Below are positions 1 to 53,570 of a stretch of 64,000 nucleotides of DNA, piece by piece. Positions within the stretch are counted from its first letter, which is position 1. Each line of letters opens with the position of its first letter. Origin of the DNA: Candidatus Enterousia sp. Lineage in GTDB: Bacteria; Pseudomonadota; Alphaproteobacteria; Rs-D84. The stretch is taken from positions 2,105 through 66,104 of the forward strand of contig JAZONN010000005.1 of NCBI GenBank assembly GCA_045654485.1, in the 5' to 3' direction. The notes beneath the pieces were generated by a model. It was not told the DNA's origin. It made no database searches and was given only the letters and a program-made list of their open reading frames with translations. A program made the translations under genes and the position numbers.

Positions 1-1391
1 AAATTAAACTCTACGCCATCTGGGCGGATAAATTGATACCAATTAATCTGCATGCGTCCAATGGCTTTATATGGCCCCGGCAATTCGCCTGTAACATAGC
101 CCAACATTAATGTGCCGGCCGGAATAATAATGGTGCGGCCATTGTCCGAGTATACGTTTCTGTCCACGGTTGCACGAACAGGCAAAGGTTTACCTTTTTC
201 GAATACATCGGCATCGGCGCGAACGTCCGAAACAATTGTTGCCGGAATTGGTTTGAATTGACGCAATACGAACGTGCGATCATATGGTTGTGTTGAAATA
301 ACGGCTCTTCGGATACCCGAAGTACCGTAATATACATCTTCCTTTTTGCGGAAAATGGAATCTTTGCGTGATTCCCAACCTTGGGCGCCCAATCGTGCGG
401 CGCCCCCGCTTTGTGCTGTGCCATCATTTGCGGCTGCACGCACGACTGGTGTGATTGCCGGTTCGTTTGATAGTTTTGGCATTTCGCCAATAATAATTGC
501 GCCGTATCCAATATGGTCGGCATCGGTTCCGATTTTTTTTGCCGGATTGTCTATGTCACTAATTATGCCGTTGTCTGGATTGTACGTGCCCGTTGGGTTT
601 CTGCAATCACGATCCGAATAAGGATAGAAATTATAAATACCGCCTTCGGGTTTTATCCAACCGATTTGACGTCCGCTTAAATCATAGCCGGGAAACGAAA
701 AGTCCGAACATGCATCAAAGCTCAACTTAAATTTATTATCGCTTTTGGGTGCGGGGGCCGGCATTGGTTCCGGTTCTGGTTCGGGTTCCGGCTCTGGTAT
801 TGGTTCTGGTTCGAACACCGGTTCTGGCACCACTATTGGTTCTGGCTCTGGTATTGGTTCTGGTTCCGGTTCTGGTTCGGGTTCTGGTGTACCAACGGCA
901 CCGACCTTAATTAATATTTGGTCTGTCTTGTATGTGTCGCTTGTTTCATTTATGTCGTGATATTTAATCAAAATCATCACGTCCTGTGGTTCGGCCGGTC
1001 GCTTTGGGTTATATTTTAATTCTAATTCGCAACTTAAATTTTCGTTAATTTCTTGAATAGTTTGACAAGAACCACCAATCGTTAAGTCACTCAACTTTTT
1101 ATCTGACGTTATGTCAATAATGTTAACCGCATCTGTTGCCTTGATGTGATAAATGGTGCTTGCCGTCTGGCCAACTTTTATGGCCTGCCAATCCAATGGT
1201 TTATCTGTGCTTGGGCTAATTTCAAGGTTTATTTCCACCGGTGCGGCTACTTCACTATTTTCCTTGTTATTGCCCAACAAAGAAACCAACAATATAACCA
1301 CGGTTATAATCGCCACAATAAGCAGTACCCACAATATAGGTTTTGGTGTATTCTTTTTTATTTCTGCAAACTGCTGCTTTAAATTACTCAT
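1..1391 (-). CDS. virB10: Type IV secretion VirB10/TrbI-family protein (C-terminus runs off the window start)
   Basis: Minus-strand frame is open from ATG 1391 to base 1. It is absent from the ORF track because it has no stop in the window. My translation begins [39 protein letters not shown] (one N-terminal TM). It continues through a (PE)n proline-rich tract. It ends in ...[62 protein letters not shown]...[18 protein letters not shown], typical of the TrbI/VirB10 barrel domain. It lies directly downstream of virB8-virB9. Confidence 0.85.
747..890. repeat. Imperfect GGTTCN hexanucleotide tract encoding the Pro-Glu/Pro-Ile linker of VirB10
   Basis: Plus strand reads ggttccggttctggttcgggttccggctctggtattggttctggttcg... 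On the minus strand this encodes [47 protein letters not shown]. Confidence 0.85.
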
Positions 1392-1434: not shown

Positions 1435-2982
1435 TTACTGCATACGCACCACGTGACAAGGTGACTTTCCGCCGGTTTGCTTGATTAATTTGTTGCACAA
1501 TGTTTGCGCTTCATCAATTGTCGCAATTGGACCAATACGAAGGCGGTATAGGCGTGCGGTTGATGCACCGGCACCTAAATCCCCAATGCCTTGTTCGTCG
1601 ACGGCAAAAAATACATCGTCTACATATGGTGTTAATAAACCGGATTCGGCACCTGAAAAGCGTGCTAACAATTCGCTCCAATATTGATCTAATGCATCAA
1701 CCGAAGTGTCGGATTGTAATTCAACCGCAACACCAGATTGATTGCTTGCGATAACTGGAATATTATTTTGTGGCAAATATGCGCCTGCTGTATTCCTTTG
1801 TGTTGGTAACATGTTTATAACACTGCCTGTGCCGGTTGCGGGCAATTGTGTTGGTATACCGTATCCCGCAGGCATATAATAACCCGCCCCGTTTACTGGG
1901 TTAGTTGCCGGTGTGTTGCCGACATATACAGGTGTTCCTGTGTAATTTGTTCCCATACTCATTGCGGCCATACTATCGGTATATGCGATATTGTTCAATG
2001 ATTGGCCCGATAACATACTTTGTGCAACGTTTGCCTCGGCCAAAGCCATAACGGATGCGGTATCTGCGATTAAGAATGGTTTTTCACGTTTTTTTATACA
2101 TACAATTCTTTGGCCACTGCGTAATACCATATCGCCAACCGCCTCTACGATTAACAAGCGGCCGTCTTCACCATCTGTGCGAAATCCAACGGGGGATTCG
2201 CCACCTTCTACCAACAAAGATACAACCGGTCTTTGTGTCATAGAAATTACTTTGTCGCCAAAATCAATGTATGTGAAAATACGATCACGCCATACACGTT
2301 CTGGTGCAATTACATAATCGTCTGGATTTGGTACGTATATATCTAAATCAAAGCGGAATTCAGATGGGTCGATTTTCATTGATTTTATCCATCCATAATC
2401 TTCGCCATCAACACCAACAGTAACCGGCCCGCTAGATTTTTTTGTGAATATAGAACCTGCGCCGCCGCTGGCTTTCTGGCCACCGGCCGATGCGATTGCT
2501 GGTGTATTGCCATCTAATACAACATCTACTTGGGAATATGTAATTTCACTGGCGTTTGCTGGCTCGGCACGTAAATAGAAAATATATCTATTGCCTGAAT
2601 TGCCGGTCACGATCATATTTGTGTCAGAACCATAGTTGTCGGTTGCTGGGCTAATAAACATTGTTTTATCGCCTTGGGTTGCGTCAACCACGAATTGACC
2701 GCTATCTCCGATTTGGATATCAGATATTTGTTCGCCCATTGGCAGATTGACCATGGTCAACATCCCGTTACGCAATTTGATTGGTAAAACCGAACCCTGA
2801 GACCAAGCCAACTGGGCATACCCCGGTTTTATACTGCCACTGGCCATATTGGCGGTTGGGTTGTCCCATGCGTATTGAACACCGTTACCTGGCTCGGCAA
2901 ATGCATCCCAAGATGCACACGTTAATAGCCCGACAACTGCGAACGCCAAAACATTGCCCATAAATACTTTTGACCGGTTCAT
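1435..2982 (-). CDS. virB9: Type IV secretion VirB9/TrbG/CagX-family protein with long C-terminal extension ending in a SPOR-like domain
   Basis: Signal peptide MNRSKVFMGNVLAFAVVGLLTCASWDAFA. VirB9 N-domain pattern: LTMVNLPMGEQISDIQIGDSGQFVVDATQGDKTMFISPATDNYGSDTNMIVTGNSGNRYIFYLRA. VirB9 C-domain pattern: RIFTYIDFGDK...RPVVSLLVEGGESPVGFRTDGEDGRLLIVEAVGDMVLRSGQRIVCIKK. A G/T/P/N-rich linker and a SPOR-like tail (ARLYRLRIGPIATIDEAQTLCNKLIKQTGGKSPCHVV) follow. I prefer ATG 2982, preceded by AGGAAGG, over the TTG at 2988 used by the ORF track. Confidence 0.88.
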   Translation of the reverse strand: MNRSKVFMGNVLAFAVVGLLTCASWDAFAEPGNGVQYAWDNPTANMASGSIKPGYAQLAWSQGSVLPIKLRNGMLTMVNLPMGEQISDIQIGDSGQFVVDATQGDKTMFISPATDNYGSDTNMIVTGNSGNRYIFYLRAEPANASEITYSQVDVVLDGNTPAIASAGGQKASGGAGSIFTKKSSGPVTVGVDGEDYGWIKSMKIDPSEFRFDLDIYVPNPDDYVIAPERVWRDRIFTYIDFGDKVISMTQRPVVSLLVEGGESPVGFRTDGEDGRLLIVEAVGDMVLRSGQRIVCIKKREKPFLIADTASVMALAEANVAQSMLSGQSLNNIAYTDSMAAMSMGTNYTGTPVYVGNTPATNPVNGAGYYMPAGYGIPTQLPATGTGSVINMLPTQRNTAGAYLPQNNIPVIASNQSGVAVELQSDTSVDALDQYWSELLARFSGAESGLLTPYVDDVFFAVDEQGIGDLGAGASTARLYRLRIGPIATIDEAQTLCNKLIKQTGGKSPCHVVRMQ

Positions 2983-3026: not shown

Positions 3027-3695
3027 TTATTCCATGTCCAGCGGATCTGTCTGCCCATCTACAACTTTGTATTGTATTACTTTTAGTCCCAATGGGTTAT
3101 CTAATCTGTTTTTCCACTTTAATTTCGTTTTATCTGTTGCAATGTCGATTTGTATTTTATAGGAAGTATCGGTTGTTTTGCCATATTTATCTATGCATCG
3201 ATAATTTATTCCGGCTTGATATCTTTCTTGGTTTTTTGTGTTTAAATCGACGGTTAATGGCAATGTTTCTGTAATGATAACACTACAAGTTTTATCTGGG
3301 GTTGTGTTGCCCATATATTTTCTAAATGCGTTTGTTTTTGTAAAAGTATTATATACCGTATCGTCCGACCATATGCGAATTGCGCCGTCGTTGCTATTCC
3401 ATTTTTTTTGCATCGCATTCTGATTTGCATAGATTTCGTTTCTGTGTTGGATATATTCATTAACAAATGTGACTTTATAGTTTTTTAACGCTTCATCGCT
3501 TTTTGGTATATGATTTACCACTTGGACATCTTGGTTTTCACGATTGGATGTGCGTAAAAAGAAAATTTGTGGTCTGTCTAAGGGGAACATACTGTATACC
3601 GTGGTGCCTAAAACACCCAAAGTCACCACCAATCCAGTCAAAATAAAAGTGGTAATTCTTGTCTGTAAAACATTGGGTTCTGTGCGTGTTGTCAC
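3027..3695 (-). CDS. virB8: Type IV secretion VirB8-family protein
   Basis: Short cytoplasmic tail, one TM (ITTFILTGLVVTLGVLGTTVY) and a periplasmic domain with VirB8-like signatures (LKNYKVTFVNEYIQHRNEIY; C-terminal NPLGLKVIQYKVVD). I prefer GTG 3695, preceded by AAGGAGA at 3701-3707. The ORF-track start at 3812 would read through the promoter region. Confidence 0.8.
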   Translation of the reverse strand: MTTRTEPNVLQTRITTFILTGLVVTLGVLGTTVYSMFPLDRPQIFFLRTSNRENQDVQVVNHIPKSDEALKNYKVTFVNEYIQHRNEIYANQNAMQKKWNSNDGAIRIWSDDTVYNTFTKTNAFRKYMGNTTPDKTCSVIITETLPLTVDLNTKNQERYQAGINYRCIDKYGKTTDTSYKIQIDIATDKTKLKWKNRLDNPLGLKVIQYKVVDGQTDPLDME

Positions 3696-3719
3696 GGCGT
3701 CTCTCCTTCTAATAAAACA

Positions 3720-3749
3720 ATTGTAGAAAAAAATATAACCCCTGTGCAA
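3720..3749 (-). promoter_or_regulatory. Putative sigma70 promoter of the virB8-9-10 operon (TTGCAC-N18-TACAAT)
   Basis: The minus strand reads cTTGCACaggggttatatttttttcTACAATtg about 25 nt upstream of the virB8 SD/GTG. This is a motif match only. Confidence 0.4.
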
Positions 3750-3801
3750 GGAAAATTTTGTAAAATCATATATGTTTGTATGCGTGTTTATGAAAATGTT
3801 C

Positions 3802-3830
3802 TTGCGTGTCAAAGTAAAAAATATTATAAT
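3802..3830 (+). promoter_or_regulatory. Putative sigma70 promoter for tRNA-Trp-secE-nusG (TTGCGT-N17-TATAAT)
   Basis: The plus strand reads cTTGCGTgtcaaagtaaaaaatatTATAAT about 90 nt upstream of tRNA-Trp. This is a motif match only. Confidence 0.4.
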
Positions 3831-3921: not shown

Positions 3922-3995
3922 AGGGGCATAGTTCAACGGTAGAATATCGGTCTCCAAAACCGCGGATGAGGGTTCGATTCCTTCTGCCCCTGCCA
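3922..3995 (+). tRNA. tRNA-Trp (anticodon CCA), CCA end encoded
   Basis: Sequence AGGGGCATAGTTCAACGGTAGAATATCGGTCTCCAAAACCGCGGATGAGGGTTCGATTCCTTCTGCCCCTGCCA. The 7-bp acceptor stem, D arm, anticodon loop CTCCAAA and T loop TTCGATT can all be folded by hand. The position upstream of secE-nusG is classical. Confidence 0.95.
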
Positions 3996-18011: not shown

Positions 18012-18764
18012 CTAATTTGAATAATTGCACTGCTGTGAAATTGAGTATTTGTCATTATTAGATGTCGTGCCTGTGCTGCCGGCCTTGATATAGCAATCAG
18101 TTATAGCGGTTGATCCGGCGTTTGAAGAACCGGCTATACCGTCTTGGTATGGGCATCCGGAACAGCCCGAACATTGAATGCCGGTACTTTGTTTAATGGA
18201 ACATGATGGTGTGCCGTATGAATTGGCGGCACATCTCCGTTCGGTTGTATATTCACACTTGCAATCTGTATCTGCTGTGCAGGTTGGGACTGTTCGTTCT
18301 TCGTATCTGGATAGTGCAGATGTAGTTCCAGATGATGTCCACGCTGTTGCTGGGGTACATGTGCTACATTCAGAGCCAATAACAATATCGCAATTTTTAA
18401 AAATGTCTGGGTCGATGGTAGGGCCGCTGCCGCCGCCGCCAACGGTACCACAACTGGCCACACGGGTTACATTGCTGCATATGCTAGATACAGATGTATT
18501 TGAATTACAGCTGCCGCAGTCGCTGTATGTTTCAATGGGCTGCATATATGTTGTTCCGTTAGAAGTATAGGTATAGCATTTTTGTGTGACTGTGCCGCCA
18601 CACGCGGTGCCGGTGCTTGTTACCCCTGTGGTCAGTACTGATTCTTTAACCTTGGTTACATAATGATCCATGTTGGAATTGCAGGATATTTCGGTGCAGG
18701 TATATGCATACGCGTTGATAGAATATATCAAAGATGCAATCAGAGAGATAAAGTATTTGTTCAT
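18012..18764 (-). CDS. Secreted Cys/Ser/Thr/Gly-rich protein of unknown function (250 aa)
   Basis: Strong SD AAGGAGG and signal peptide MNKYFISLIASLIYSINAYA. The mature part has about 21 Cys, including CSGCSGC, CKC and CGSC clusters. No enzymatic motif seen. Confidence 0.75.
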   Translation of the reverse strand: MNKYFISLIASLIYSINAYAYTCTEISCNSNMDHYVTKVKESVLTTGVTSTGTACGGTVTQKCYTYTSNGTTYMQPIETYSDCGSCNSNTSVSSICSNVTRVASCGTVGGGGSGPTIDPDIFKNCDIVIGSECSTCTPATAWTSSGTTSALSRYEERTVPTCTADTDCKCEYTTERRCAANSYGTPSCSIKQSTGIQCSGCSGCPYQDGIAGSSNAGSTAITDCYIKAGSTGTTSNNDKYSISQQCNYSN

Positions 18765-20161: not shown

Positions 20162-20674
20162 ATGTTCAAAAGATCAAAAATTTGTATAACTGTACTGTCT
20201 TTATATGAAATCGTCGCAGTATGTTGGCTTTATTGGCCGGTGACATGTGATGCAGTTTTAGGGCGTACGTTTTGTATGTCTGGATTTCGGTATTTTGTAT
20301 TCTGTGCGGCATTACCGATTATTGTAATGTTGGCGTGGATGTGGATTGCATCTGCGGTACGTGCCCATCGTCGCCGTCGCTTTATCCGTCGTGCCAAAGG
20401 TGCTTTGCATGGCTTGATTTCCGGCATTCGTGGTCGTGTTATGGAAAATATATCGGCCGCAGATATTGAACGCTTGCTGATTGCAGGCGCACTGTTTGCG
20501 ATTCAGCGTTACATTAACCGTCATCCAAATCTGCAACGTGATATCAATAACGTTATGGATTTGGCGGATGGGACAATTGACATGTCGGAATTTTCTGCGT
20601 CTGAAACATTGCGTGCGGCGCGTCGCAAACCGCGGCGCCCAGAATCCAACCGTACATCACGCCGTACCAAATAA
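20162..20674 (+). CDS. Hypothetical membrane protein with Arg-rich segments (170 aa)
   Basis: Two N-terminal TM segments, an RRRRFIRR stretch and a basic C-terminus. No family recognised. Confidence 0.55.
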   Translation: MFKRSKICITVLSLYEIVAVCWLYWPVTCDAVLGRTFCMSGFRYFVFCAALPIIVMLAWMWIASAVRAHRRRRFIRRAKGALHGLISGIRGRVMENISAADIERLLIAGALFAIQRYINRHPNLQRDINNVMDLADGTIDMSEFSASETLRAARRKPRRPESNRTSRRTK

Positions 20675-23194: not shown

Positions 23195-24880
23195 TTAATT
23201 TTCTGATTTTTGTTTGCCAATGCCATAGGTATCTTTGTTGATAATTAAATTTCCTGTGGTGGCCCCTACTGCACCAACGCCACCAACAACCGCACCTGCG
23301 GTAATATAATTTTTAGATTTTTTTGTCTGTTCTGCCCATGCGGTTGCATCTGGGCCATTTGGGTCTAAAACAGCGCGCGCCAAAGATGTATACATACCCG
23401 TTCTTTGGCCTGATGACACGTCGTCATATAATCCAGATGTTGCAGAATTTAATATTGGTTCGCTTTCAATGCCACGTGGTAATCCCAATTGTTCTTTGTG
23501 TGTTTTTACGTTGTTTGCCAAAGTCACATATTCTGCATATAAATTGACCAATTCATCTGAAATGGGCAACGTGGTTGGTTGTGTGTCGTATTTAGTATTA
23601 TTATCGTTACCGTATTTGCATTGAAAAGTTGCGACATAGTTCTCCATTTGGGCCATTGCTTTTTCATCGGCATTTTTTTCTGCTATTCCCATTCCTAACA
23701 TCATACCGCCTGCACCGGTGGCTGCTATTGACGCGCCACCTAAAATTTTATTGGCATTTCTTTGTTCGTTCGCAAGTGCACGTTCATAGTTTTCCCTTAA
23801 TTTTTCATAATCGTTTGCGACGCTCAGCATGGTTAGAAATTCTCTGTTGTTCATATTTTCTGCGCCACTTGCGGGCTTATTTAATCCGCTGGTTTGTTCC
23901 GCTTCTGTTAATTGTTGCCTTTGGGCGTCCAAATCTGCTTGGGTTTCTTCGTCGCTTGGTTCGTATGTTGGTGCCGTTGGACGTTTAATTTGTTTCATTT
24001 CTGCCAATGCATCGACAAATTCGTTTGTTCGTATCCCAAGTGGTGTGTATACATCGTCTTCATAACTATCTATTCCACCATGTATAATTCCATGTAATGT
24101 CCCACCGTAAAAGTATGGGCCGCCGGAATCACCGTGCCATGTATCACATGTTGAAATAAATTTGCCACGCTGATTTATATACTTATTTTTCAATATCCCC
24201 AAACTGTTTATTTGTGGGATTTCGATTATTTCACAATTTATGTGTGCTTTTAATTTGAATTCCCATTCGCCGGGTTCTTTGCTGTTGGGAACACGGCTGT
24301 CGTCCAAATAAATGTTGTATTTATCGCGTACAATCGGTCTGATGGCCTTGTACACAGTCAAATAATCGTCGTTTGGTCTGTTTTTTGCCTGATCCATAAA
24401 AACTTTCTTGCACTGGTTAATTTGTTCTTCGCTTAATATGGCCAGTGATGAAAAACCTGCTGTTGTGACAGTCCTTTTTGTTGTTTTTTCTGCAACGTCA
24501 AAGAAATCGGACCGGTGCAGGTTTGGGTCGTATAAGCGCAATAGTGCCCAATCAGCATGGGCCATATTTTGTCCATATTTTTCCAACGTTGCTTTGCCAC
24601 GTTTATTATCGTGTGTCCATATATCAAACTCCTTGCCTATTTTTACATAGTTATCAAAGTTTGGATTTTCGGTCACGCAATGTCGTGCGGTCAAAATAAT
24701 ATCTGGTGCAACATATTCTGCGGTACATGTGCCTGTTGGTGATGGATAAAAATATACGATTTTATTATATGGTGGTTGGCTCCAATCTACGTATTCTCGT
24801 TCATCGGTACTGCCTATATTTGCATATGTGCATGTGCTGTACAGGATTAGAATAGCAGATATTGCTATTTTTTTTGTCAT
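23195..24880 (-). CDS. Secreted trypsin-like (S1 family) serine protease with ~260-aa C-terminal extension containing two Gly-zipper hydrophobic segments
   Basis: Signal peptide MTKKIAISAILILYSTCTYA. Catalytic His context ILTARHCV and catalytic Ser context CDTWHGDSGGPYF. The C-terminal part has an acidic/coiled linker plus GGASIAATGAGGMMLGMGIA and AGAVVGGVGAVGATTG. I prefer ATG 24880, with GGGGA 9 nt upstream. In-frame alternatives are ATG 24889 and the ORF-track start at 24961. Confidence 0.85.
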   Translation of the reverse strand: MTKKIAISAILILYSTCTYANIGSTDEREYVDWSQPPYNKIVYFYPSPTGTCTAEYVAPDIILTARHCVTENPNFDNYVKIGKEFDIWTHDNKRGKATLEKYGQNMAHADWALLRLYDPNLHRSDFFDVAEKTTKRTVTTAGFSSLAILSEEQINQCKKVFMDQAKNRPNDDYLTVYKAIRPIVRDKYNIYLDDSRVPNSKEPGEWEFKLKAHINCEIIEIPQINSLGILKNKYINQRGKFISTCDTWHGDSGGPYFYGGTLHGIIHGGIDSYEDDVYTPLGIRTNEFVDALAEMKQIKRPTAPTYEPSDEETQADLDAQRQQLTEAEQTSGLNKPASGAENMNNREFLTMLSVANDYEKLRENYERALANEQRNANKILGGASIAATGAGGMMLGMGIAEKNADEKAMAQMENYVATFQCKYGNDNNTKYDTQPTTLPISDELVNLYAEYVTLANNVKTHKEQLGLPRGIESEPILNSATSGLYDDVSSGQRTGMYTSLARAVLDPNGPDATAWAEQTKKSKNYITAGAVVGGVGAVGATTGNLIINKDTYGIGKQKSEN

Positions 24881-24903
24881 TCGTGTCATCCCCACATCGG
24901 TAC

Positions 24904-24934
24904 AAAAATAAAACCGCCATTGGGAAATGGCGGT
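24904..24934 (-). terminator. Intrinsic terminator inside the protease leader
   Basis: The minus strand reads ACCGCCATTtcccAATGGCGGTtttattttt. It ends about 24 nt before the protease ATG. Confidence 0.8.
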
Positions 24935-25121
24935 CGGGGTGTTCGAAAAGTCATTACACAAATAACCCCGTTGCTTTCAATATATAACAACGGCACCCCG
25001 ACCGTATATGGTGGGGTAAAAATAACGGTGCGAACGGCACCGATATTACATCGGATTACGATGCTTTCGCACCGTGTGTAATGGGCTTTTCGAAGGCCCG
25101 AACCCAAATCCCTTTGGATTC
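24935..25121 (-). promoter_or_regulatory. Structured leader RNA (riboswitch-like aptamer candidate plus antiterminator) upstream of the protease gene
   Basis: An 18-bp closing helix pairs 25075-25083 with 24952-24960 and 25086-25094 with 24942-24950. Internal helices pair 25066-25074 with 25026-25034 and 24988-24993 with 24968-24973. An 11-nt perfect complement (24994-25004 versus 24931-24941) competes with the terminator stem. Confidence 0.6.
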
Positions 25122-36409: not shown

Positions 36410-38392
36410 TTACCACAGTTTTACACGTGCATCGGCATCAATGAACATTTTGTCATCGCTTGTAATACCAAATGCATCGTACCAAGCGGTCACGTGTGGC
36501 AAAATTCCATTAACACGGTTTTTGCCCAACGAATGTTCATCAACCTTGGTCAATCGCAGTTCTTCATCTGCACGAATATTCTGCGCCCATGCGCCTGCAT
36601 ATGCGACAAAGAAACGCATATCTGCCGTCATATTTGCAATGTCTGCGGATGGTGTGCCATATTTTTTATACGCATCAAATGATATTGTAACGCCACCGTA
36701 ATCAGCCAAGTTTTCACCCAACGTAAATTCGCCGTTTGCATAAACTTCGTCGTTAATTTTGATTTTATCAAAGAATTCCTTCATGACATTGGCGCGTTTA
36801 TTGAATCCGTCTGCATCTTCGGCGGTCCACCAATCTTTCATATTTCCGTCTTTATCAAAGTGGCGTCCGGAATCATCAAAACCGTGTGTCATTTCATGTC
36901 CAATAACTGCGCCGATTGCGCCATAGTTAAATGCGTCGTCTGCTGACATATCAAAGAAGGGGTATTGCAATATTCCGGCCGGAAAACAGATTTCGTTTGT
37001 GGATGGGTCGTAATAAGCATTCACTTCGTGTGCGTTCATATACCAAATATTTGGATCTTTTTTCTGACCAATTTTTTTAATCCAAAATTCATCTTCGAAC
37101 TGTGCAACGCGCACCATATTTTCCCACAAAGAATCGTCTTTGATTTCCAATGCGTCATAGTCACGCCATTTGTCCGGATATCCAATTTTTGCACGGAAAG
37201 TGGACAGTTTTTCCAATGCTTTTTCACGTGTTTCATCGGACATCCAATCCAAGTTTTCGATGCGGTCTGCGTACGCGCGCTGTAGATTTTTTACCAATGT
37301 CTGCATACGTTGTTTTGCATCGCCGGAAAAATATTGTGCAACGTACAATCGGCCGATTTCTTCACCCAAAGAACCGTCTAACATAGATACCGCACGTTTC
37401 CAACGTGGCTTTGGTTCTTTTTGTCCCGCCATTGTTCGGTTATAGAAATCAAATGATATATCGTATGTTTTATCATCTAATACAGAATCTGCCGCGCCAA
37501 TGATGCGATATTTCAAATATGTTTTAATTAATTCCATATCTGTATCATTTATGATTGCGATTGATTCTGTGATTGCTTCGGGTTGGGCGATATTGATAAA
37601 TTCTGCCGCTGTTGCGCCACGTGCGGTTAGGAAAGTATCCCAATCAAACCCTGCGAATTTTTCTTTTACTTCTGCGACACTCATTTTGTGATAGTTTGCA
37701 TGTGGGTCGCGCAGTTTTTCTTTTGGATAGAACGATTTTGCCATACGTTCTTCTAATTTATATAATTTTTCAACATCGACATCCAATCCAAAGTTTTTCA
37801 TTTGTTTGGCGATAAATTCTTTGTATTTTTTTCTGACTTCGATGGACTTTGCGTCGGTATCAAAGTAATAATCGCGCGATAATCCTAATCCACTTTGACC
37901 GATGTTGTACAAGAAATGTTCGCTGTCCATTTCGTCTAACGCAACGCCATCGCCCCAGAAAGCAGAAGAAAACTTAAATACGTTACCCAGATATTTTGGC
38001 AAATCTGCACGGGTTAATGTATCTATTTCGTCCAAGTATTTTTGAACAGGTTTAATTCCGTCCGCATTTAATTTATCTGCATCCATTGCGATTTTGTACA
38101 GCATACCAATTTTGCCATTATCATTTTCGGCAATTTGACGTGTGCGTTCTAAATTTGTGTTACGCAAAACTTCGAACGCGCCAAATCTGGAATAGTCGTC
38201 GGGAATAGGGTGGGCCACCTGCCAACCGCGTGTTGCATAATTGTAAAAGTCGTCACCGGCTTTGACGGACATATCCATATTTTCAATTTTGATACCTGCG
38301 TTCAATGTTTTCTCCTTTGTGATATTGTGTGCGAATATAATTGCGCCTGCGACCGCAATGATTCCGATAATATTTAATGTTTTTCCTTCCAT
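36410..38392 (-). CDS. pepO: M13-family zinc metalloendopeptidase (PepO/neprilysin-like)
   Basis: N-terminal membrane anchor, the NAYY motif (VNAYYDPSTNEICFPAGILQ), the HExxH motif (VIGHEMTHGFDD) and a C-terminal ...VKLW. Confidence 0.9.
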   Translation of the reverse strand: MEGKTLNIIGIIAVAGAIIFAHNITKEKTLNAGIKIENMDMSVKAGDDFYNYATRGWQVAHPIPDDYSRFGAFEVLRNTNLERTRQIAENDNGKIGMLYKIAMDADKLNADGIKPVQKYLDEIDTLTRADLPKYLGNVFKFSSAFWGDGVALDEMDSEHFLYNIGQSGLGLSRDYYFDTDAKSIEVRKKYKEFIAKQMKNFGLDVDVEKLYKLEERMAKSFYPKEKLRDPHANYHKMSVAEVKEKFAGFDWDTFLTARGATAAEFINIAQPEAITESIAIINDTDMELIKTYLKYRIIGAADSVLDDKTYDISFDFYNRTMAGQKEPKPRWKRAVSMLDGSLGEEIGRLYVAQYFSGDAKQRMQTLVKNLQRAYADRIENLDWMSDETREKALEKLSTFRAKIGYPDKWRDYDALEIKDDSLWENMVRVAQFEDEFWIKKIGQKKDPNIWYMNAHEVNAYYDPSTNEICFPAGILQYPFFDMSADDAFNYGAIGAVIGHEMTHGFDDSGRHFDKDGNMKDWWTAEDADGFNKRANVMKEFFDKIKINDEVYANGEFTLGENLADYGGVTISFDAYKKYGTPSADIANMTADMRFFVAYAGAWAQNIRADEELRLTKVDEHSLGKNRVNGILPHVTAWYDAFGITSDDKMFIDADARVKLW

Positions 38393-39552: not shown

Positions 39553-41073
39553 ATGATGAAGGCGGGAAAGATTTTATTTTTATCGGGTATTTTTGCGCCG
39601 TTCATGGCATTTGCTGCGAACGAAGGGGTGCCTTCGTACTATCAAACATCTGCCACACCAACCGCAAATCAGGTTGCGTATGGCCAATATGCTAACCAAG
39701 GTTATACCAAATACGTTGGCAAATCCGGTTCAAAGCAGGTTGTTGGAACACGTACACAAACGTATCAGGTTCCACGTTCGCAATATGTACCTGCATATAC
39801 CGGTGGTATGACGACAAACGGTATTGCGATGCCCGCTGCGGCTGAACCTGCGACAACAATGTATGCGGGATATTCACGTCGTTTTGCGGATTTTGAATTT
39901 GAAACGGGTGTAAATTCTATTTTGGAATGGGACGACATGGTATGGAATGAATTGTTGATCGGTGCCCGTCATAATTTTAGTTTGCGTGATTTTGATTTGT
40001 CTGTATTTGGGGAATATAGTTATGGTAAAATGGCCCATGGCGGTTTGGCTATGGATTATGATTTGAAACCATTTGATGCATCCGACCCATATTATGGAAT
40101 ATTTACAATATCTGTTGGTGATCAAACGGGGCGTAGTGATCATTTCCGTTTTGGTATATCTGCACGCCATGTCTGGGATATTGCGGGTTGGAAACTGTCG
40201 CCAACATTTGGGTATGAAATTTTCAAGCATAATTTGGAAATGTCGGATCATTATTATCCGAACCCTGGAATATATTTGCCTTTGATGACCAATGGTGGTG
40301 AATATATCTTTGGTGACGAATTGGGCAATTATTATGCGGTTCCGGTTGGGATGACGCCGCCATCTGATTGGTATCAAGTGTGTATGTCGCCCGAAGATAT
40401 TAAAATCGTAACCAATACCCCAACGGGCAGCTTGGATGGATTTTTGACATTGGGCGATTCATTGGTTACTGGTGATTATGATATTACAATGGGTACTGTG
40501 CCTTGGGGTGTTGGTGCCGGTGAATGTGTTATTATTGGCGGCGATGGTCCGGTAATTGTTGGTGGTACAACACATATTTACAATACGACATGGTCTGGAT
40601 TTTACGTCGGGCTAGAGATTGAAAAACAGGTAACATTAAAAGATAAATTACGTTTCTATATGCAATTTGGTATGCCAAAGTATTCGTCCGAAGGTATATG
40701 GCCAAACCGTACAGATTGGCAACAGAACCCCAGTTTCTTGGACGAAGGCGATAATGATGCATATTCATATATGGCGGAAATGGAATATAATTATAAATTG
40801 TCCGATCGTTTGCAGTTATCGTTAAAGGTTGATACGAATTTCTTCCATGTTGGCAATATTCCTGGCGAATTGTATATTGCGGAAACGTCACAATACGTTA
40901 TGGACGAAAACGGCCAATATGTAATGGAAGAAGTGATTGATGAATTCGGTAATGTTTACTATGTTCCATTATTAGAAACTGTACCGGCCCATACTGAACA
41001 CGTTAGCAATTCTTTAAAGCGTGCCACTTGGCAATCGTTTGGATTGCATATTGGTGTCAAATACGCATTTTAA
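39553..41073 (+). CDS. Putative outer-membrane beta-barrel protein (506 aa)
   Basis: Signal peptide MMKAGKILFLSGIFAPFMAFA. Aromatic-rich alternating pattern and a terminal ...GVKYAF, as in OMPs. No specific family recognised. Confidence 0.6.
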   Translation: MMKAGKILFLSGIFAPFMAFAANEGVPSYYQTSATPTANQVAYGQYANQGYTKYVGKSGSKQVVGTRTQTYQVPRSQYVPAYTGGMTTNGIAMPAAAEPATTMYAGYSRRFADFEFETGVNSILEWDDMVWNELLIGARHNFSLRDFDLSVFGEYSYGKMAHGGLAMDYDLKPFDASDPYYGIFTISVGDQTGRSDHFRFGISARHVWDIAGWKLSPTFGYEIFKHNLEMSDHYYPNPGIYLPLMTNGGEYIFGDELGNYYAVPVGMTPPSDWYQVCMSPEDIKIVTNTPTGSLDGFLTLGDSLVTGDYDITMGTVPWGVGAGECVIIGGDGPVIVGGTTHIYNTTWSGFYVGLEIEKQVTLKDKLRFYMQFGMPKYSSEGIWPNRTDWQQNPSFLDEGDNDAYSYMAEMEYNYKLSDRLQLSLKVDTNFFHVGNIPGELYIAETSQYVMDENGQYVMEEVIDEFGNVYYVPLLETVPAHTEHVSNSLKRATWQSFGLHIGVKYAF

Positions 41074-41095
41074 TACCTAACCCAAAGGATTGTAT

Positions 41096-42154
41096 ATGAC
41101 CAGAATCACGTTTGTGTGCTTGCTTTGTCTGACCTGTATTGCGCCACAAATTGCACATTGTGAATCTGGTGTGTTTGATTTAGATCGTTGGTACACAATC
41201 ACAGATAATGTTCGCGCACGTGCAGAATCCGAAAACATTTCATCGGATACAATTGATTCTACGGTAAACAACCTTGCGTTGATACCGTCTATTTTGAAAA
41301 GTGATAAAAATCAATCAGAATTCAAATTGACATTGGATGATTACTTGGCGCGTACCGTAAATCCAACGCGTATTGCAACGGGTAAAAAGATGCGCAAAAC
41401 ATATCCAACATTATTGTCGCGTGTGGAATCTCGCTTTGGTGTTCCTCCGCATATAATATTGGCGTTTTGGGGGATGGAATCGAATTATGGGGCGGTAAAA
41501 TCACGTCATAAATTAAAAGATGCATTTTTTACATTGATGTATGACGGTCGTCGTGAAACATTTTTTACAAATCAATTGCTGGCATTAATGCGTATTGCGG
41601 ATAAAAATCGATTGGATATAAATAATATGCATGGTTCTTGGGCGGGTGCGATGGGGCATTTTCAATTTATTCCAACGACCCTAAATCAATATGGTACAGA
41701 CGGCGATGGCGACAATCGCACAGATATTATCAATAATTTGCCTGATGCGATGTTCAGTGCAGGTAATTATCTGAATAAATTGGGGTGGAACAAAAACGAA
41801 CGTATTGTACGTCGTGTCGTATTGCCTTATGATTTTGATTTGTCGTTGTTGGACGGACAAACCAAGTTACCATTGTCGCAATGGACTGCGATGGGGGTAA
41901 CGAACCCCGATGGTTCTGCTTTGCCGGTTCTGGATATGACGGCCGGATTGGTTGCAGATGTTGCGCACGTCACCCAAATGCGTGAACAGGCAACTCTGCA
42001 AACCCCAGATACGGTCGAAATGGATGTTGATATTGCGCCCCAGCCGGCGATTACCGCATATTTAACCTATCCAAATTTTTATCGTATTAAACGTTGGAAT
42101 AATTCCAATTGGTATGCCATTGCAATTGCAGAATTGGCGGACGAATTACATTGA
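41096..42154 (+). CDS. Lytic murein transglycosylase (MltB/SLT_2 family)
   Basis: Signal peptide, then ILAFWGMESNYG, GAMGHFQFIPTT and DGDGDNRTDI motifs. ATG 41096 lies after AAAGGA. The ORF-track start at 41090 is a TTG. Confidence 0.85.
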   Translation: MTRITFVCLLCLTCIAPQIAHCESGVFDLDRWYTITDNVRARAESENISSDTIDSTVNNLALIPSILKSDKNQSEFKLTLDDYLARTVNPTRIATGKKMRKTYPTLLSRVESRFGVPPHIILAFWGMESNYGAVKSRHKLKDAFFTLMYDGRRETFFTNQLLALMRIADKNRLDINNMHGSWAGAMGHFQFIPTTLNQYGTDGDGDNRTDIINNLPDAMFSAGNYLNKLGWNKNERIVRRVVLPYDFDLSLLDGQTKLPLSQWTAMGVTNPDGSALPVLDMTAGLVADVAHVTQMREQATLQTPDTVEMDVDIAPQPAITAYLTYPNFYRIKRWNNSNWYAIAIAELADELH

Positions 42155-49023: not shown

Positions 49024-49151
49024 AATTTACCCCCGATTAATTTAATACGTGTGTATTTTATACAGATTTTGCCAATTTGCAACATAATAAACTTTGCGAA
49101 AAAATATTTCTTTATGGTTTGTGTTGGTTGTTGTGATGTTTCGGAATAACG

Positions 49152-49176
49152 AAAAAACCTGCTGATTTCAGCAGGT
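49152..49176 (-). terminator. Intrinsic terminator after tRNA-Lys
   Basis: The minus strand reads ACCTGCTGAaaTCAGCAGGTtttttc. Confidence 0.8.
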
Positions 49177-49181
49177 TATCG

Positions 49182-49257
49182 TGGTGGGAACACAGGGACT
49201 CGAACCCTGGACCCAATGATTAAAAGTCATTTGCTCTACCAACTGAGCTATGTTCCC
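49182..49257 (-). tRNA. tRNA-Lys (anticodon UUU), CCA end encoded
   Basis: The minus strand reads GGGAACATAGCTCAGTTGGTAGAGCAAATGACTTTTAATCATTGGGTCCAGGGTTCGAGTCCCTGTGTTCCCACCA. The cloverleaf folds by hand and the anticodon loop is CTTTTAA. Confidence 0.95.
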
Positions 49258-49359
49258 AAAACCGGACCGTGGAAAGCGAAACCATAGGGTCTGTTTCCAC
49301 AGGTACGGGGGCAATTTTGACACATGTAAAAACAAAAATCAAGTAAAATATTCAAAAAA

Positions 49360-50046: not shown

Positions 50047-50090
50047 ATTTCGTACTGTACATTAAAAAATGTTATGTTCCCACAGGCATG

Positions 50091-51248: not shown

Positions 51249-51371
51249 CGCATTCCCCTTTTTGATGATAAATATTATATAAAAATTTACATAAAAGTAC
51301 ACAGCAAATATTGAATTTACCCCCCAAATGTACTATAATATATATGATAGATATGTGATAAATAAAAGGAT

Positions 51372-53435: not shown

Positions 53436-53485
53436 TCCACACATACGCCACTTGATTTTATCGTTAATTTGTGGTATAATAAAAA

Positions 53486-53548
53486 CATGCGTCACCGGTT
53501 GGTGGCGTTTGTTTTTTGTCGTCCTTTTGCGGGCGACTTTTTTTTGTT
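53486..53548 (+). terminator. Two tandem intrinsic terminators
   Basis: The first hairpin is cgtcaccggttggtggcg followed by ttgtttttt. The second is gtcgtccttttgcgggcgac followed by T8. Confidence 0.75.
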
Positions 53549-53570
53549 CATTAAAACCAAAGGATTTACT

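What the first reader, a model, noticed from the sequence alone, without database searches (positions are those of the whole stretch)
1435..2982. VirB9 core-complex protein fused to a C-terminal SPOR-like peptidoglycan-binding domain
The first ~300 residues contain both VirB9 domains (the IGD...TNMIVTG..RYIFYL pattern and the C-terminal LIVEAVGDMVLRSGQRIVCIKK pattern). Canonical VirB9 proteins end about there; Agrobacterium VirB9 is just under 300 aa. Here a ~110-aa Gly/Thr/Pro/Asn/Tyr-rich linker follows (…NYTGTPVYVGNTPATNPVNGAGYYMPAGYGIPTQLPATGTGS…). The last ~95 aa (GVAVELQSDTSVDALDQYWSELLARF…ARLYRLRIGPIATIDEAQTLCNKLIKQTGGKSPCHVVRMQ) fit the SPOR pattern seen in alphaproteobacterial SPOR proteins: a strand, a helix, then YRLR.GP..…A..LC..L……C.VV. 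A SPOR module on the outer-membrane core complex would tether the type IV machine to denuded glycan strands in the cell wall. I do not know this architecture as a described feature of VirB/D4 systems.
Basis: partly seen in the sequence, partly recalled or inferred. Interest (0 to 1): 0.65.

Follow-up and report, generated by a model that had tools for sequence, protein, structure and literature searches.

The report
VirB9 secretion protein with SPOR tail
A gut bacterium with a tiny genome encodes the outer-membrane ring protein (VirB9) of its type IV secretion machine fused to a divergent cell-wall-binding (SPOR) domain; the fusion marks a whole undescribed branch of alphaproteobacterial secretion systems and may anchor or position the machine on the cell wall.

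Summary
It sits in a virB8-virB9-virB10 operon of a 'Candidatus Enterousia' gut alphaproteobacterium.

- **VirB9 part:** residues 57-298 match Pfam CagX/VirB9 (81 bits). Canonical VirB9 proteins end at about residue 301.
- **Extension (214 aa):** an ultra-conserved segment (302-350), a variable low-complexity linker (351-415) and a C-terminal domain (416-515).
- **The C-terminal domain is a divergent SPOR domain:**
  - Pfam SPOR scores just above threshold.
  - AlphaFold gives a beta-alpha-beta-beta-alpha-beta fold, and its best PDB matches are the RlpA, CwlC and DedD SPOR domains.
  - Profile-profile homology to bona fide alphaproteobacterial SPOR domains is 99.3%.
- **Not an artefact:** 80 of 80 genome loci and 243 of 243 long homologues keep the fusion under purifying selection. 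Tail-bearing VirB9s group together in an unbootstrapped tree. That group includes megaplasmids of cultured Sphingosinicella and Erythrobacter.
- **Caveat:** the hallmark glycan-contact Gln is Glu or Asp in every member and the usual aromatic residue is lost, while the Arg pair is kept. Peptidoglycan binding is therefore plausible but unproven.

No paper describing the architecture was found. I rate it a new variant of a known kind, of moderate interest.

The parts
1435..2982 (-). virB9-SPOR gene (515 codons plus TAA stop); ATG at 2982, RBS-like aggaagg upstream
   Evidence: ORF list and sequence; Pfam CagX + SPOR; more than 1500 full-length homologues
2896..2982 (-). Predicted Sec signal peptide, aa 1-29 (MNRSKVFMGNVLAFAVVGLLTCASWDAFA|EPG). 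The Cys in LLTC is not conserved in the family, so it is not a lipobox.
   Evidence: Read from the sequence; family consensus ...PAYA; predicted helix aa 4-22. Inference; no signal-peptide predictor was run.
2089..2814 (-). VirB9 core (N-terminal and C-terminal VirB9 domains), aa 57-298
   Evidence: Pfam PF03524 81.2 bits. A family profile aligns to X. citri VirB9 6gyb (residues 31-96 and 175-254 of 255) and to the TraO CTD 2ofq. Plasmid VirB9s align to aa 26-302 only.
1933..2079 (-). Ultra-conserved post-VirB9 segment, aa 302-350 (KPFLIADTASVMALAEANVAQSMLSGQSLNNIAYTDSMAAMSMGTNYTGT), with a predicted helix at aa 309-324
   Evidence: 85-98% amino-acid identity across 80 species loci, while about 45% of identical residues use a different synonymous codon; helix in the low-confidence full-length model
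1738..1932 (-). Variable Gly/Thr/Pro/Asn/Tyr/Ala-rich linker, aa 351-415, predicted disordered
   Evidence: 55-66% identity and many indels in the family; pLDDT below 50
1438..1737 (-). Divergent SPOR domain, aa 416-515: beta1 417-425, alpha1 428-442, beta2 457-461, beta3 479-486, alpha2 489-502, beta4 510-514. The protein ends in an invariant ...VVRxQ-COOH.
   Evidence: AlphaFold2 domain pLDDT about 78-91; Foldseek top hits RlpA/CwlC/DedD SPOR; Pfam SPOR; hhalign 99.3% to bona fide SPOR; census of 243 homologues
1720..1722 (-). GAA codon for Glu421, at the position of the hallmark SPOR glutamine (RlpA Q270 / FtsN Q251)
   Evidence: hhalign maps IAvEL onto ywVQL; Glu in 242 and Asp in 1 of 243 homologues; Asp in the Sphingomonadales plasmid homologues; role of the Gln from PMC6895207
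1537..1545 (-). Codons for Arg480-Leu481-Arg482 (YRLRIGP, beta3). The Arg pair matches the conserved RLR of bona fide alphaproteobacterial SPOR domains; correspondence to the RlpA R309/R311 basic patch is my inference.
   Evidence: R 238/243, L 243/243, R 243/243; aligned to yRLRaGP of bona fide SPOR; basic patch role from PMC6895207
1456..1497 (-). Span containing the two invariant Cys codons (Cys496 at 1495-1497 in alpha2; Cys509 at 1456-1458 before beta4); probable intradomain disulfide
   Evidence: 243/243 conserved; the same Cys pair is invariant in alphaproteobacterial SPOR alignment A3. The disulfide is an inference.
3027..3812 (-). virB8 (maximal ORF; the true start is probably internal), 44 nt upstream of virB9
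   Evidence: Pfam VirB8 PF04335, 42.6 bits; no minus-strand terminator-like site between the genes
1..1391 (-). 5' part of virB10 (cut by the window edge), with a Pro-rich repeat region and the start of the TrbI domain; it starts 43 nt after the virB9 stop
   Evidence: Pfam TrbI aa 381-462 and a PARP-like Pro-rich hit; the full-length orthologue in L072 is 827 aa

Best explanation
This gene encodes the VirB9 outer-membrane core-complex subunit of a chromosomal type IV secretion system in a reduced-genome gut alphaproteobacterium ('Candidatus Enterousia', order Rs-D84). The canonical two-domain VirB9 ends at about residue 301.

It is followed by a 214-aa extension with three parts:
- a nearly invariant segment with a helix (aa 302-350);
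- a flexible low-complexity linker of about 65 aa;
- a divergent SPOR domain, probably disulfide-stabilised, that ends the protein.

The most likely mechanism is this. After Sec export, the VirB9 domains assemble with VirB10 under the outer membrane. Each subunit's SPOR domain hangs on its linker into the periplasm and binds the glycan backbone of the peptidoglycan sacculus. That fastens the outer-membrane ring to the cell wall. It may also deliver VirB9 to amidase-processed septal or polar wall, so that the machine is installed at division sites, as the AMIN domains of PilQ do for type IV pili.

Shown here: the domain architecture, homology and fold of the tail, purifying selection, operon context, and restriction of the tail to one group of VirB9 homologues. 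Inferred: periplasmic location, the disulfide, peptidoglycan binding, and the anchoring or positioning role. The binding site is remodelled (Glu for the hallmark Gln, no aromatic, an extra invariant Arg513 and a terminal Gln), so the exact ligand may differ from canonical denuded glycan.
For: **Architecture.** Pfam CagX and SPOR both hit. Canonical VirB9 ends at query aa ~301.

**SPOR identity.**
- AlphaFold2 gives a b-a-b-b-a-b fold with domain pLDDT 78-91.
- The top three Foldseek PDB hits are SPOR domains: 6i09 and 6i05 (RlpA, TM 0.72-0.74 normalised to the target) and 1x60 (CwlC), followed by 6ztg (DedD).
- hhalign against proteins that score 79-118 bits on Pfam SPOR gives 99.3%, E 2e-20.
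- The Arg pair, the GP motif and the Cys pair are conserved.

**Selection.** 243 of 243 long homologues keep the tail. 80 of 80 genome loci are intact, with synonymous differences of about 37-64% per 25-residue block along the whole gene.

**Context.**
- The gene lies in virB8-virB9-virB10 with 43-44-nt gaps and no minus-strand terminator-like site.
- Relatives sit in virB4...virB8-virB8-virB9-virB10-virB11 clusters and in full virB/virD4 clusters on plasmids.
- The organism has a cell wall and an outer membrane: an MltB-like transglycosylase and LpxD are in the window, and RodA, MreB and MrdA are reported for Rs-D84 (PMC12306168).

**Precedents.**
- PilQ AMIN domains bind PG, recruit the pilus machine to division sites and may anchor it (PMC5285504).
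- DotK and Dis1 carry OmpA-like PG-binding domains in the Dot/Icm outer-membrane complex (PMC9302130).
Against: - The only residue highly conserved among SPOR domains, the Gln that hydrogen-bonds the NAM lactyl and the NAG N-acetyl groups (PMC6895207), is Glu here and Glu or Asp in all tail-bearing VirB9s. A carboxylate should not donate those hydrogen bonds and would sit next to the lactyl carboxylate.
- The preferred Phe at model position 12 is Asp, His or Asn.
- Pfam recognises only the second half of the domain, and most family members fall below its threshold.
- Foldseek E-values are weak (1.6e-3), and the ferredoxin-like fold is common.
- No binding, localisation or topology data exist.
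- The full-length model is too poor (pLDDT 47) to place the tail relative to the ring.
- The other T4SS genes of this genome were not seen; they are not in the window.
Confidence: 0.6

Rival explanations
1. The tail keeps the SPOR fold but has been repurposed as a protein-protein interaction module inside the secretion machine, for example docking on the unusually long VirB10, on a VirB7-like lipoprotein or on VirB6 paralogues. In this reading it does not bind peptidoglycan.
For: - The hallmark Gln and the aromatic residue are lost in every member.
- New family-specific invariants appear that bona fide SPOR domains lack: Asp in beta2, Tyr453, Arg513 and the C-terminal Gln515.
- The segment next to the tail, aa 302-350, is 85-98% identical across species, which suggests a tight protein interface.
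- VirB10 partners in this group are enlarged: 733-827 aa in two lineages and 2274-2717 aa in others.
Against: - The Arg pair on beta3, which I infer corresponds to the basic patch that binds the muramic-acid carboxylate in RlpA, is invariant.
- The domain is clearly homologous to PG-binding SPOR domains.
- A 65-aa or longer disordered linker of variable length fits a tether to a distant, extended target such as the sacculus better than a fixed intra-complex contact.
Confidence: 0.2
2. The SPOR domain mainly serves as an address label. It binds amidase-processed septal glycan so that VirB9, and with it the whole machine, is inserted at the division site and inherited at the new poles. That would dispense with a dedicated wall-cutting enzyme for retrofitting. 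Mechanical anchoring would be secondary.
For: - All characterised SPOR domains localise to septa by binding denuded glycan (PMC6895207; bioRxiv 10.1101/2022.07.01.498525).
- PilQ AMIN domains do exactly this for type IV pili (PMC5285504).
- No virB1-like gene lies next to the virB8-10 operon here or in L072.
Against: - The remodelled binding site (Glu for Gln) argues against canonical denuded-glycan recognition.
- Absence of VirB1 and presence of septal amidases could not be checked genome-wide.
- An MltB-like lytic transglycosylase is present in the window.
- No localisation data exist.
Confidence: 0.12
3. The tail is displayed on the cell surface and binds the wall or glycans of a partner or target cell. 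It would act as an adhesin for a contact-dependent T4SS of an obligate epibiont or parasite.
For: - Enterousia/Rs-D84 genomes are under 1 Mb, lack most biosynthesis and are proposed to depend on partner cells (PMC12306168).
- The altered binding site could reflect a foreign ligand.
- A long flexible linker would suit reaching outwards.
Against: - Nothing in the sequence suggests a route across the outer membrane.
- The same tail occurs on megaplasmids of free-living Sphingomonadales, which are not epibionts.
- SPOR domains are periplasmic in all characterised Gram-negative cases (established knowledge; PMC6895207).
Confidence: 0.05
4. The long ORF is an assembly or sequencing artefact that joins a VirB9 gene to a separate SPOR-protein gene.
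For: None found.
Against: - The same uninterrupted architecture occurs in 80 of 80 independent species-level genome loci, including a closed 958,618-bp chromosome (L072).
- It also occurs in 243 of 243 long homologues from many sources.
- It also occurs in finished plasmids of cultured strains.
Confidence: 0.01

Closest known systems
Canonical VirB9 / TraO / TrbG core-complex subunits (A. tumefaciens VirB9, pKM101 TraO, X. citri VirB9, PDB 6gyb, 2ofq)
   Same: Signal peptide, N- and C-terminal VirB9 domains (Pfam PF03524), gene order virB8-virB9-virB10, and the conserved C-terminal ...GxxVCxKK motif that ends the canonical protein.
   Different: - Canonical proteins stop there. Seven plasmid VirB9s have 0-20 residues after that point. 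This protein continues for 214 aa.
- It scores far below the NCBIfam VirB9 equivalog cut-off (54 against 217.7 bits), so it is a divergent lineage.
SPOR domains of cell-division proteins (FtsN, DamX, DedD, RlpA; B. subtilis CwlC), Pfam PF05036
   Same: About 75-100 aa with a b-a-b-b-a-b fold, a basic Arg pair on beta3 followed by GP, and a C-terminal position after a disordered low-complexity linker (the typical SPOR-protein layout described in PMC6895207). The Cys pair is shared with alphaproteobacterial SPOR domains.
   Different: - It is attached to a secretion-system subunit rather than a divisome or morphogenesis protein.
- The hallmark Gln is Glu or Asp, the position-12 aromatic is lost, and beta1-alpha1-beta2 is too divergent for the Pfam model.
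- There are extra invariant residues and an invariant C-terminal Gln.
PilQ secretin AMIN domains (type IVa pilus, P. aeruginosa / M. xanthus)
   Same: A PG-binding module fused to the outer-membrane channel subunit of a trans-envelope machine. It recruits the machine to division sites and is proposed to anchor it to the wall (PMC5285504). This is the best mechanistic analogue.
   Different: The fold differs (AMIN, N-terminal, tandem), and so do the machine (secretin) and the evolutionary origin.
Legionella Dot/Icm DotK and Dis1 (OmpA-like domains in the outer-membrane complex)
   Same: Peptidoglycan-binding-type domains that are stoichiometric parts of a T4SS outer-membrane core complex (PMC9302130).
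   Different: They belong to a type IVB system, are separate lipoprotein subunits rather than fusions to the VirB9 homologue (DotH), and have an OmpA-like fold rather than a SPOR fold.
GspB/OutB of the Dickeya type II secretion system
   Same: It anchors an outer-membrane secretion pore to the peptidoglycan (title of PMC9239104).
   Different: It is a separate inner-membrane scaffolding protein in a different machine. Only the title was consulted here.
Rickettsiales vir homologue (rvh) T4SS
   Same: Chromosomal, scattered vir genes in a reduced genome. Relatives show virB4 followed by several unannotated ORFs, then virB8, a small ORF, virB8, virB9, virB10 and virB11. From my own knowledge this is the rvh layout.
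   Different: - No duplication is seen in the Enterousia locus itself; it has only virB8-9-10.
- To my knowledge rvh VirB9 proteins are not reported to carry a SPOR tail; this was not tested here.

Membership tests
VirB9/TrbG/CagX (Pfam PF03524) | Significant match to the family HMM above its gathering score | tested here: met
   81.2 bits against a cut-off of 34.2, aa 57-298 covering 5-197 of 198 model positions
VirB9/TrbG/CagX (Pfam PF03524) | Two-domain organisation alignable to structurally solved VirB9 (NTD plus CTD) | tested here: met
   The family profile aligns to X. citri VirB9 6gyb residues 31-96 and 175-254 (E 4.7e-4) and to the TraO CTD 2ofq (E 0.09; weak). A single-sequence search is not significant.
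VirB9/TrbG/CagX (Pfam PF03524) | Encoded between virB8 and virB10 | tested here: met
   Pfam VirB8 upstream and TrbI/VirB10 downstream, on the same strand with 43-44-nt gaps. The order is the same in L072, L081-L083 and the plasmids.
P-type VirB9 equivalog (NCBIfam TIGR02781) | Score at or above the curated equivalog cut-off | tested here: not met
   54 bits against a cut-off of 217.7. It is a divergent VirB9 lineage, not the P-type equivalog.
SPOR domain (Pfam PF05036) | Match to the family HMM above its gathering score | tested here: met
   22.8 bits against 21, E 1e-4, but only model positions 41-73 of 76. The match is marginal: only 3 of the 120 closest homologues and about 35 of 120 more distant ones carry a precomputed SPOR hit.
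SPOR domain (Pfam PF05036) | Four-stranded antiparallel sheet flanked by two helices (b-a-b-b-a-b, RNP-like) | tested here: met
   AlphaFold2 elements are E417-425, H428-442, E457-461, E479-486, H489-502 and E510-514. The Foldseek top hits are SPOR domains of RlpA, CwlC and DedD.
SPOR domain (Pfam PF05036) | Whole-domain homology to proteins that are unambiguous SPOR members | tested here: met
   hhalign of A4 against A3 gives 99.3%, E 2.4e-20 over 82 columns. A3 members score 79-118 bits on Pfam SPOR over positions 2-75. A3 was collected with the tail profile, so the E-value is somewhat flattered.
SPOR domain (Pfam PF05036) | Conserved Gln on beta1 (model position 8; RlpA Q270, FtsN Q251, DamX Q351) that contacts NAM lactyl and NAG N-acetyl | tested here: not met
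   Glu421 here. Across 243 homologues the position is Glu in 242 and Asp in 1, and it is Asp in the Sphingomonadales plasmid proteins. The mapping comes from hhalign; the residue's role comes from PMC6895207.
SPOR domain (Pfam PF05036) | Preferred aromatic at model position 12 (RlpA F274) | tested here: not met
   Asp425 here; Asp, His or Asn across the family. Bona fide alphaproteobacterial SPOR domains have Phe or Tyr in most members.
SPOR domain (Pfam PF05036) | Basic patch on the exposed sheet face (RlpA R302/R309/R311; FtsN R285) | tested here: met
   Arg480 (238/243) and Arg482 (243/243) lie in YRLRxGP, and Arg513 is conserved in 239/243. The alternation with core residue Leu481 places them on one face; that placement is an inference.
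SPOR domain (Pfam PF05036) | Binds denuded peptidoglycan glycan strands / localises to the septum | not testable with these tools
   This needs sacculus pull-down, ITC or MS with synthetic glycans, and fluorescent localisation.
Rickettsiales vir homologue (rvh)-type T4SS | Scattered chromosomal vir islands with duplicated virB8/virB9/virB4 and multiple virB6 paralogues | tested here: inconclusive
   Relatives L081 and L082 have duplicated virB8 with a small ORF between the copies. L081 also has five unannotated ORFs after virB4. The Enterousia locus shows only virB8-9-10, isolated beside the secE-nusG-rpoBC cluster. The rest of the genome was not available.

The most novel reading that the evidence does not exclude
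The VirB9-linked SPOR domains form a distinct subfamily. Their invariant acidic residue at the hallmark Gln position, together with a remodelled charged surface (Glu421, Arg480, Arg482, Arg513, C-terminal Gln), would redirect binding away from canonical denuded glycan. The new ligand could be de-N-acetylated or otherwise modified peptidoglycan, a stem-peptide amine, or a partner cell's wall. This interaction would then determine where and how a whole lineage of alphaproteobacterial T4SSs is installed, from gut symbionts with under 1 Mb of genome to Sphingomonadales megaplasmids. One possibility is assembly at division septa without a dedicated VirB1-type wall-cutting enzyme.
Probability: 0.25. 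Interest if true: 0.7.

Novelty: new variant of a known kind. Interest (0 to 1): 0.5.

Why it matters
How type IV secretion machines pass through and attach to the cell wall is poorly understood. The usual answer is a VirB1-type lytic transglycosylase. Wall-binding subunits are known only as accessory proteins of the Legionella Dot/Icm system.

Here a wall-binding-type domain is built into the core ring subunit itself, and is therefore presumably present in as many copies as the ring has subunits. It is kept under strong selection across a whole group of T4SSs. If it binds the sacculus, it gives a direct and testable model for anchoring or septal pre-installation of a T4SS.

The systematic Gln-to-Glu change also offers a natural experiment on SPOR ligand specificity.

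The system appears to be the main cell-contact apparatus visible so far in Enterousia/Rs-D84, abundant gut bacteria proposed to depend on partner cells, whose T4SS is not mentioned in the one published genome analysis checked here (PMC12306168). Cultured carriers (Sphingosinicella sp. BN140058, Erythrobacter aureus YH-07) make experiments feasible.

Tried and rejected
- **Plus-strand translation.** Translating the given coordinates on the + strand gave many stops; the gene is on the minus strand.
- **Sequence searches against PDB.** A single-sequence phmmer search of the whole protein gave nothing significant. The tail profile A1 against PDB sequences gave no SPOR hit. Only the fold search and profile-profile comparison showed the relationship.
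- **Word-index search with the tail alone.** It returned only 34 short fragments of the same family, so it was uninformative about other architectures.
- **Full-length AlphaFold2 model.** Mean pLDDT was 47, because the VirB9 CTD is nearly invariant in the shallow alignment. The model cannot place the tail relative to the ring.
- **tblastn of the tail against 72,556 plasmids.** It found nothing. This was a false negative: the closest plasmid VirB9s carry a diverged version of the tail, found only by reading their C-termini and scoring them with the A3 and A4 HMMs. Pfam SPOR also misses those.
- **Lipoprotein reading of the N-terminus (LLTC).** Rejected because the Cys is not conserved and the family consensus ends in an AxA-type site.
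- **Frameshift or fusion artefact.** Rejected.
- **Recent transfer as the cause of the 96-99% identical block (aa 201-325).** Rejected because synonymous differences there are as frequent as elsewhere.
- **Other SPOR proteins in the window.** None found.
- **Other T4SS genes among the ORFs I scanned in the window.** None found.
- **Literature.** Searches for VirB9 + SPOR domain; type IV secretion + SPOR + peptidoglycan-binding + core complex; and Rs-D84 + type IV secretion each returned no paper. T4SS + SPOR domain and VirB9 + C-terminal extension + peptidoglycan returned papers, but none describes this architecture.
- **The FtsN mutagenesis paper (PMC3837948)** is not held, so the effect of Gln substitutions is cited only through PMC6895207.
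- **Diversity-generating retroelement near the Mtd_N-domain ORF.** No repeats were found.


Full report
**1. The observation**

The coordinates 1435-2982 hold one uninterrupted ORF, on the minus strand. The ATG is at 2982, behind an aggaagg Shine-Dalgarno-like motif. The TAA stop is at 1437-1435 and the product is 515 aa. The plus-strand translation is full of stops.

**2. Context and organism**

- Upstream on the same strand, 44 nt away, is a VirB8 gene (3812..3027; Pfam VirB8).
- Downstream, 43 nt away, is a VirB10/TrbI gene with a proline-rich repeat region. It runs off the window at position 1.
- No terminator-like site lies between these genes on the minus strand, so virB8-virB9-virB10 is most simply read as one operon.
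- Divergently upstream lie tRNA-Trp, secE, nusG, the genes for ribosomal proteins L1, L10 and L7/L12, then rpoB and rpoC.
- The ORFs I scanned in the rest of the window are housekeeping genes. Among them are LpxD, an MltB-like lytic transglycosylase and a Pom-like outer-membrane protein. The cell therefore has an outer membrane and a remodelled wall.
- A scan of one genome per species found 230 relatives. The best 80 are almost all MAGs labelled 'Candidatus Enterousia' or uncultured Alphaproteobacteria/Rickettsiales from animal and human guts. One is a closed 958,618-bp chromosome.
- Enterousia belongs to GTDB order Rs-D84. These genomes are mostly under 1 Mb, lack most biosynthetic pathways, and are proposed to belong to obligate symbionts or parasites. 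The paper describing them does not mention a secretion system (PMC12306168).
- In the closed chromosome the locus is again just virB8-virB9-virB10 (VirB10 is 827 aa), between nusG and yidC.

**3. The VirB9 part**

Pfam CagX/VirB9 matches aa 57-298 at 81 bits. NCBIfam's P-type VirB9 equivalog is hit at only 54 bits against a cut-off of 217.7, so this is a divergent lineage.

A family profile aligns to both domains of the X. citri VirB9 structure (6gyb). Residue 254 of that 255-residue protein aligns to the ...VCIKKR motif at about residue 301 here. The profile also aligns to the TraO C-terminal domain, 2ofq.

In tblastn against 72,556 plasmids, 18 VirB9 genes match. None matches beyond residue 302. 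Seven of those genes, checked individually, have 0-20 residues after that point. Everything after about residue 301 is therefore an extension of 214 aa.

**4. Anatomy of the extension**

Across 120 database homologues and 80 genome loci the extension divides into three parts:
- aa 302-350 are 85-98% identical, continuing a 96-99% identical block that begins at aa 201;
- aa 351-415 are 55-66% identical, rich in indels and low in complexity;
- aa 416-515 are 51-81% identical.

Among identical residues, the share that use a different synonymous codon is about 37-64% per 25-residue block along the whole gene, and 42-50% within the invariant block. The conservation is therefore purifying selection on the protein, not recent transfer.

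**5. The C-terminal domain is a divergent SPOR domain**

- Pfam SPOR hits aa 476-509 at 22.8 bits (cut-off 21), covering only model positions 41-73.
- AlphaFold2 on aa 395-515 with 32 sequences gives a domain with pLDDT about 78-91 and the order beta-alpha-beta-beta-alpha-beta.
- In Foldseek against the PDB, the top three hits are SPOR domains: RlpA 6i09 and 6i05 (TM 0.72-0.74 normalised to the target, rmsd about 3.1 Å) and CwlC 1x60. DedD 6ztg is fifth. E-values are modest at 1.6e-3 and above, and other ferredoxin-like folds follow.
- An exhaustive HMMER search of 1.84 billion representative proteins with the tail profile found only 54 hits. About half are tails of other long VirB9 proteins. 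Most of the rest checked are alphaproteobacterial multi-SPOR proteins with the canonical YWVQLGxF ... YRLRxGP ... LC..L ... C.VV pattern. Seven of those that I scanned score 66-118 bits on Pfam SPOR; the five that are also in alignment A3 score 79-118 bits over model positions 2-75.
- Profile-profile comparison of the VirB9 tails (A4) with those bona fide SPOR domains (A3) gives 99.3% probability, E 2.4e-20, over the whole domain.
- The A3 HMM hits this ORF, and no other ORF in the window, at E 6e-9.

**6. The binding site is remodelled**

The crystallographic study of RlpA-SPOR with denuded glycan reports several things (PMC6895207):
- Only one residue is highly conserved across SPOR domains. 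It is the beta1 Gln (RlpA Q270, FtsN Q251, DamX Q351; model position 8). It hydrogen-bonds the NAM lactyl carboxylate and the NAG N-acetyl group.
- Position 12 is preferentially Phe.
- A basic patch (RlpA R302, R309, R311) binds the carboxylate.

hhalign maps the canonical VQLGxF onto VELQSD in this protein:
- The Gln is Glu421. Across 243 long VirB9 homologues it is Glu in 242 and Asp in 1. It is also Asp in the two Sphingomonadales plasmid proteins described in section 7.
- Position 12 is Asp, His or Asn rather than an aromatic residue.
- The Arg pair of YRLRxGP, the GP motif and two Cys residues are essentially invariant.
- New family-specific invariants appear: Tyr453, an Asp in beta2, Arg513 and the very last residue, Gln515.

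The exposed sheet face is thus under strong constraint but is chemically different from a canonical SPOR site. Peptidoglycan binding remains the most economical inference. Canonical denuded-glycan recognition cannot be assumed.

**7. Distribution**

- **Within the family.** All 243 long homologues I could test carry the tail.
- **More distant clusters.** Proteins below 50% identity (463-617 aa, uncultured Alphaproteobacteria or 'Rickettsiales bacterium' MAGs) have the same CagX + SPOR architecture. They lie in clusters with the order virB4, unannotated ORFs, virB8, a small ORF, virB8, virB9-SPOR, virB10 and virB11. Their VirB10 proteins are 2274-2717 aa. A simpler virB8-virB9-virB10 locus also occurs. 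From my own knowledge the duplicated layout resembles the Rickettsiales vir homologue system.
- **Cultured strains.** Unexpectedly, the three closest plasmid VirB9s also carry C-terminal extensions.
  - Sphingosinicella sp. BN140058 p1 (WP_129392748.1, 430 aa) and the Erythrobacter aureus YH-07 plasmid (WP_115418090.1, 432 aa) end in KYxVDLGxG ... VRLRVGPF ... VCKAM ... SCxV.
  - Both the A3 and A4 HMMs detect these tails (E about 1e-6 to 1e-8 against a very small database). Pfam SPOR and tblastn both miss them.
  - Microvirga pMVF16-3 VirB9 (550 aa) has a Pro/Ala-rich linker and a degenerate Cys-pair tail.
- **Tree.** In a neighbour-joining tree of the VirB9 domain alone, all extension-bearing proteins group together and seven tail-less plasmid VirB9s fall outside. 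The tree has no bootstrap values. This suggests a single origin of the extension in one alphaproteobacterial T4SS lineage.

**8. Mechanism**

I commit to the following model, at about 0.6 for the functional part and above 0.95 for the architecture.

VirB9 is exported by Sec. Its two canonical domains assemble with VirB10 beneath the outer membrane. The invariant 302-350 segment probably packs against a partner in the ring. The linker of about 65 residues could span up to about 20 nm if extended (my estimate). It lets the SPOR domain reach the sacculus and bind its glycan backbone. The result is a multivalent fastening of the ring to the wall.

A plausible additional or alternative role is delivery of VirB9 to amidase-processed septal or polar wall, so that the machine is built in at division. 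This is what PilQ's AMIN domains do for type IV pili (PMC5285504). The nearest T4SS precedent is the pair DotK and Dis1, separate OmpA-like subunits of the Dot/Icm outer-membrane complex (PMC9302130).

Rivals, in order of weight:
- a repurposed protein-interaction module (0.2), favoured by the lost Gln and aromatic residue and by the new invariants;
- a purely addressing role (0.12);
- surface display toward a partner cell (0.05);
- an artefact (refuted).

**9. Novelty**

Five full-text searches across about 8 million papers and preprints found no description of a VirB9-SPOR fusion, nor of a T4SS in Rs-D84/Enterousia. Source databases name these proteins only as 'TrbG/VirB9 family'. Automated domain tables do record PF05036 + PF03524 for a minority of members, so the architecture is latent in databases but uninterpreted.

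I classify it as a new variant of a known kind: a VirB9 with a built-in, atypical SPOR module that defines a T4SS sub-lineage. Interest is moderate (0.5). Wall-anchoring modules on envelope machines are a familiar theme. A fusion to the T4SS core subunit, its breadth, the systematic Gln-to-acid change and the availability of cultured carriers make it a worthwhile experimental lead.

Noticed in passing
window 1933-2382 (-), aa 201-350 of VirB9: A 125-150-residue block (the VirB9 C-terminal domain plus the first 50 residues of the extension) is 85-99% identical in protein across 80 species whose other regions differ by 20-50%. Synonymous codon differences in the block are as frequent as elsewhere. 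This is unusually strong purifying selection and suggests a tight multi-partner interface.
   Followed up: partly
L081 11611-19764; L082 4115-10939; L072 9525-12008; window 1-1391 (-): VirB10 partners of tail-bearing VirB9s are enlarged. They are 827 aa in Enterousia (TrbI domain at 406-613, with about 200 further residues after it), and 2274 aa and 2717 aa in two other MAG lineages. The window's VirB10 has a Pro-rich repeat that hits the trypanosome PARP model.
   Followed up: no
L084 2875-4167 (Sphingosinicella sp. BN140058 plasmid p1); L085 5878-7176 (Erythrobacter aureus YH-07 plasmid); L086 5734-7386 (Microvirga sp. VF16 pMVF16-3): Cultured free-living Alphaproteobacteria carry megaplasmid virB/virD4 clusters whose VirB9 has a diverged version of the same tail, with Asp at the Gln site. 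Pfam SPOR and BLAST both miss it. These strains are possible experimental models.
   Followed up: partly
L081 9030-9230; L082 1395-1571: A 58-66-aa ORF lies between two virB8 paralogues. From memory, this is the position of rvhB7 in Rickettsiales rvh islands. No equivalent small ORF was evident next to virB8 in the Enterousia window, where tRNA-Trp (3922-3995) lies instead.
   Followed up: no
window 53469-54125 (+) and 51372-53432 (+): A 219-aa ORF carries a phage 'major tropism determinant' N-terminal domain (Mtd_N, E 2e-10). It follows a 687-aa ORF with no Pfam match. No direct repeats of 40 bp or more were found at 49000-56000 and no reverse-transcriptase domain was hit among the neighbouring ORFs I scanned, so there is no sign of a diversity-generating retroelement.
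   Followed up: partly
window 39553-41070 (+) and 41090-42151 (+): A 506-aa protein has a Protochlamydia outer-membrane-protein (Pom) domain (E 2e-9). It lies directly upstream of an MltB-like lytic transglycosylase (SLT_2, E 3e-90). The Pom family is typical of chlamydial symbionts of amoebae.
   Followed up: no
window 18015-18764 (-), 49363-50046 (-), 59457-60167 (+), 62354-62899 (-), 20162-20671 (+): Several ORFs of 170-250 aa have no Pfam match at E <= 1e-5 or 1e-6. This fits the 'hypothetical membrane-bound proteins' noted for Rs-D84 genomes in PMC12306168.
   Followed up: no
window 23198-24961 (-), 36413-38392 (-), 57525-58853 (+): The window encodes three proteases: a 588-aa trypsin-like protease, an M13 (neprilysin-like) metallopeptidase and an M48 peptidase with TPR repeats. 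Whether they are exported was not examined. This may be relevant to a peptide-scavenging lifestyle.
   Followed up: no
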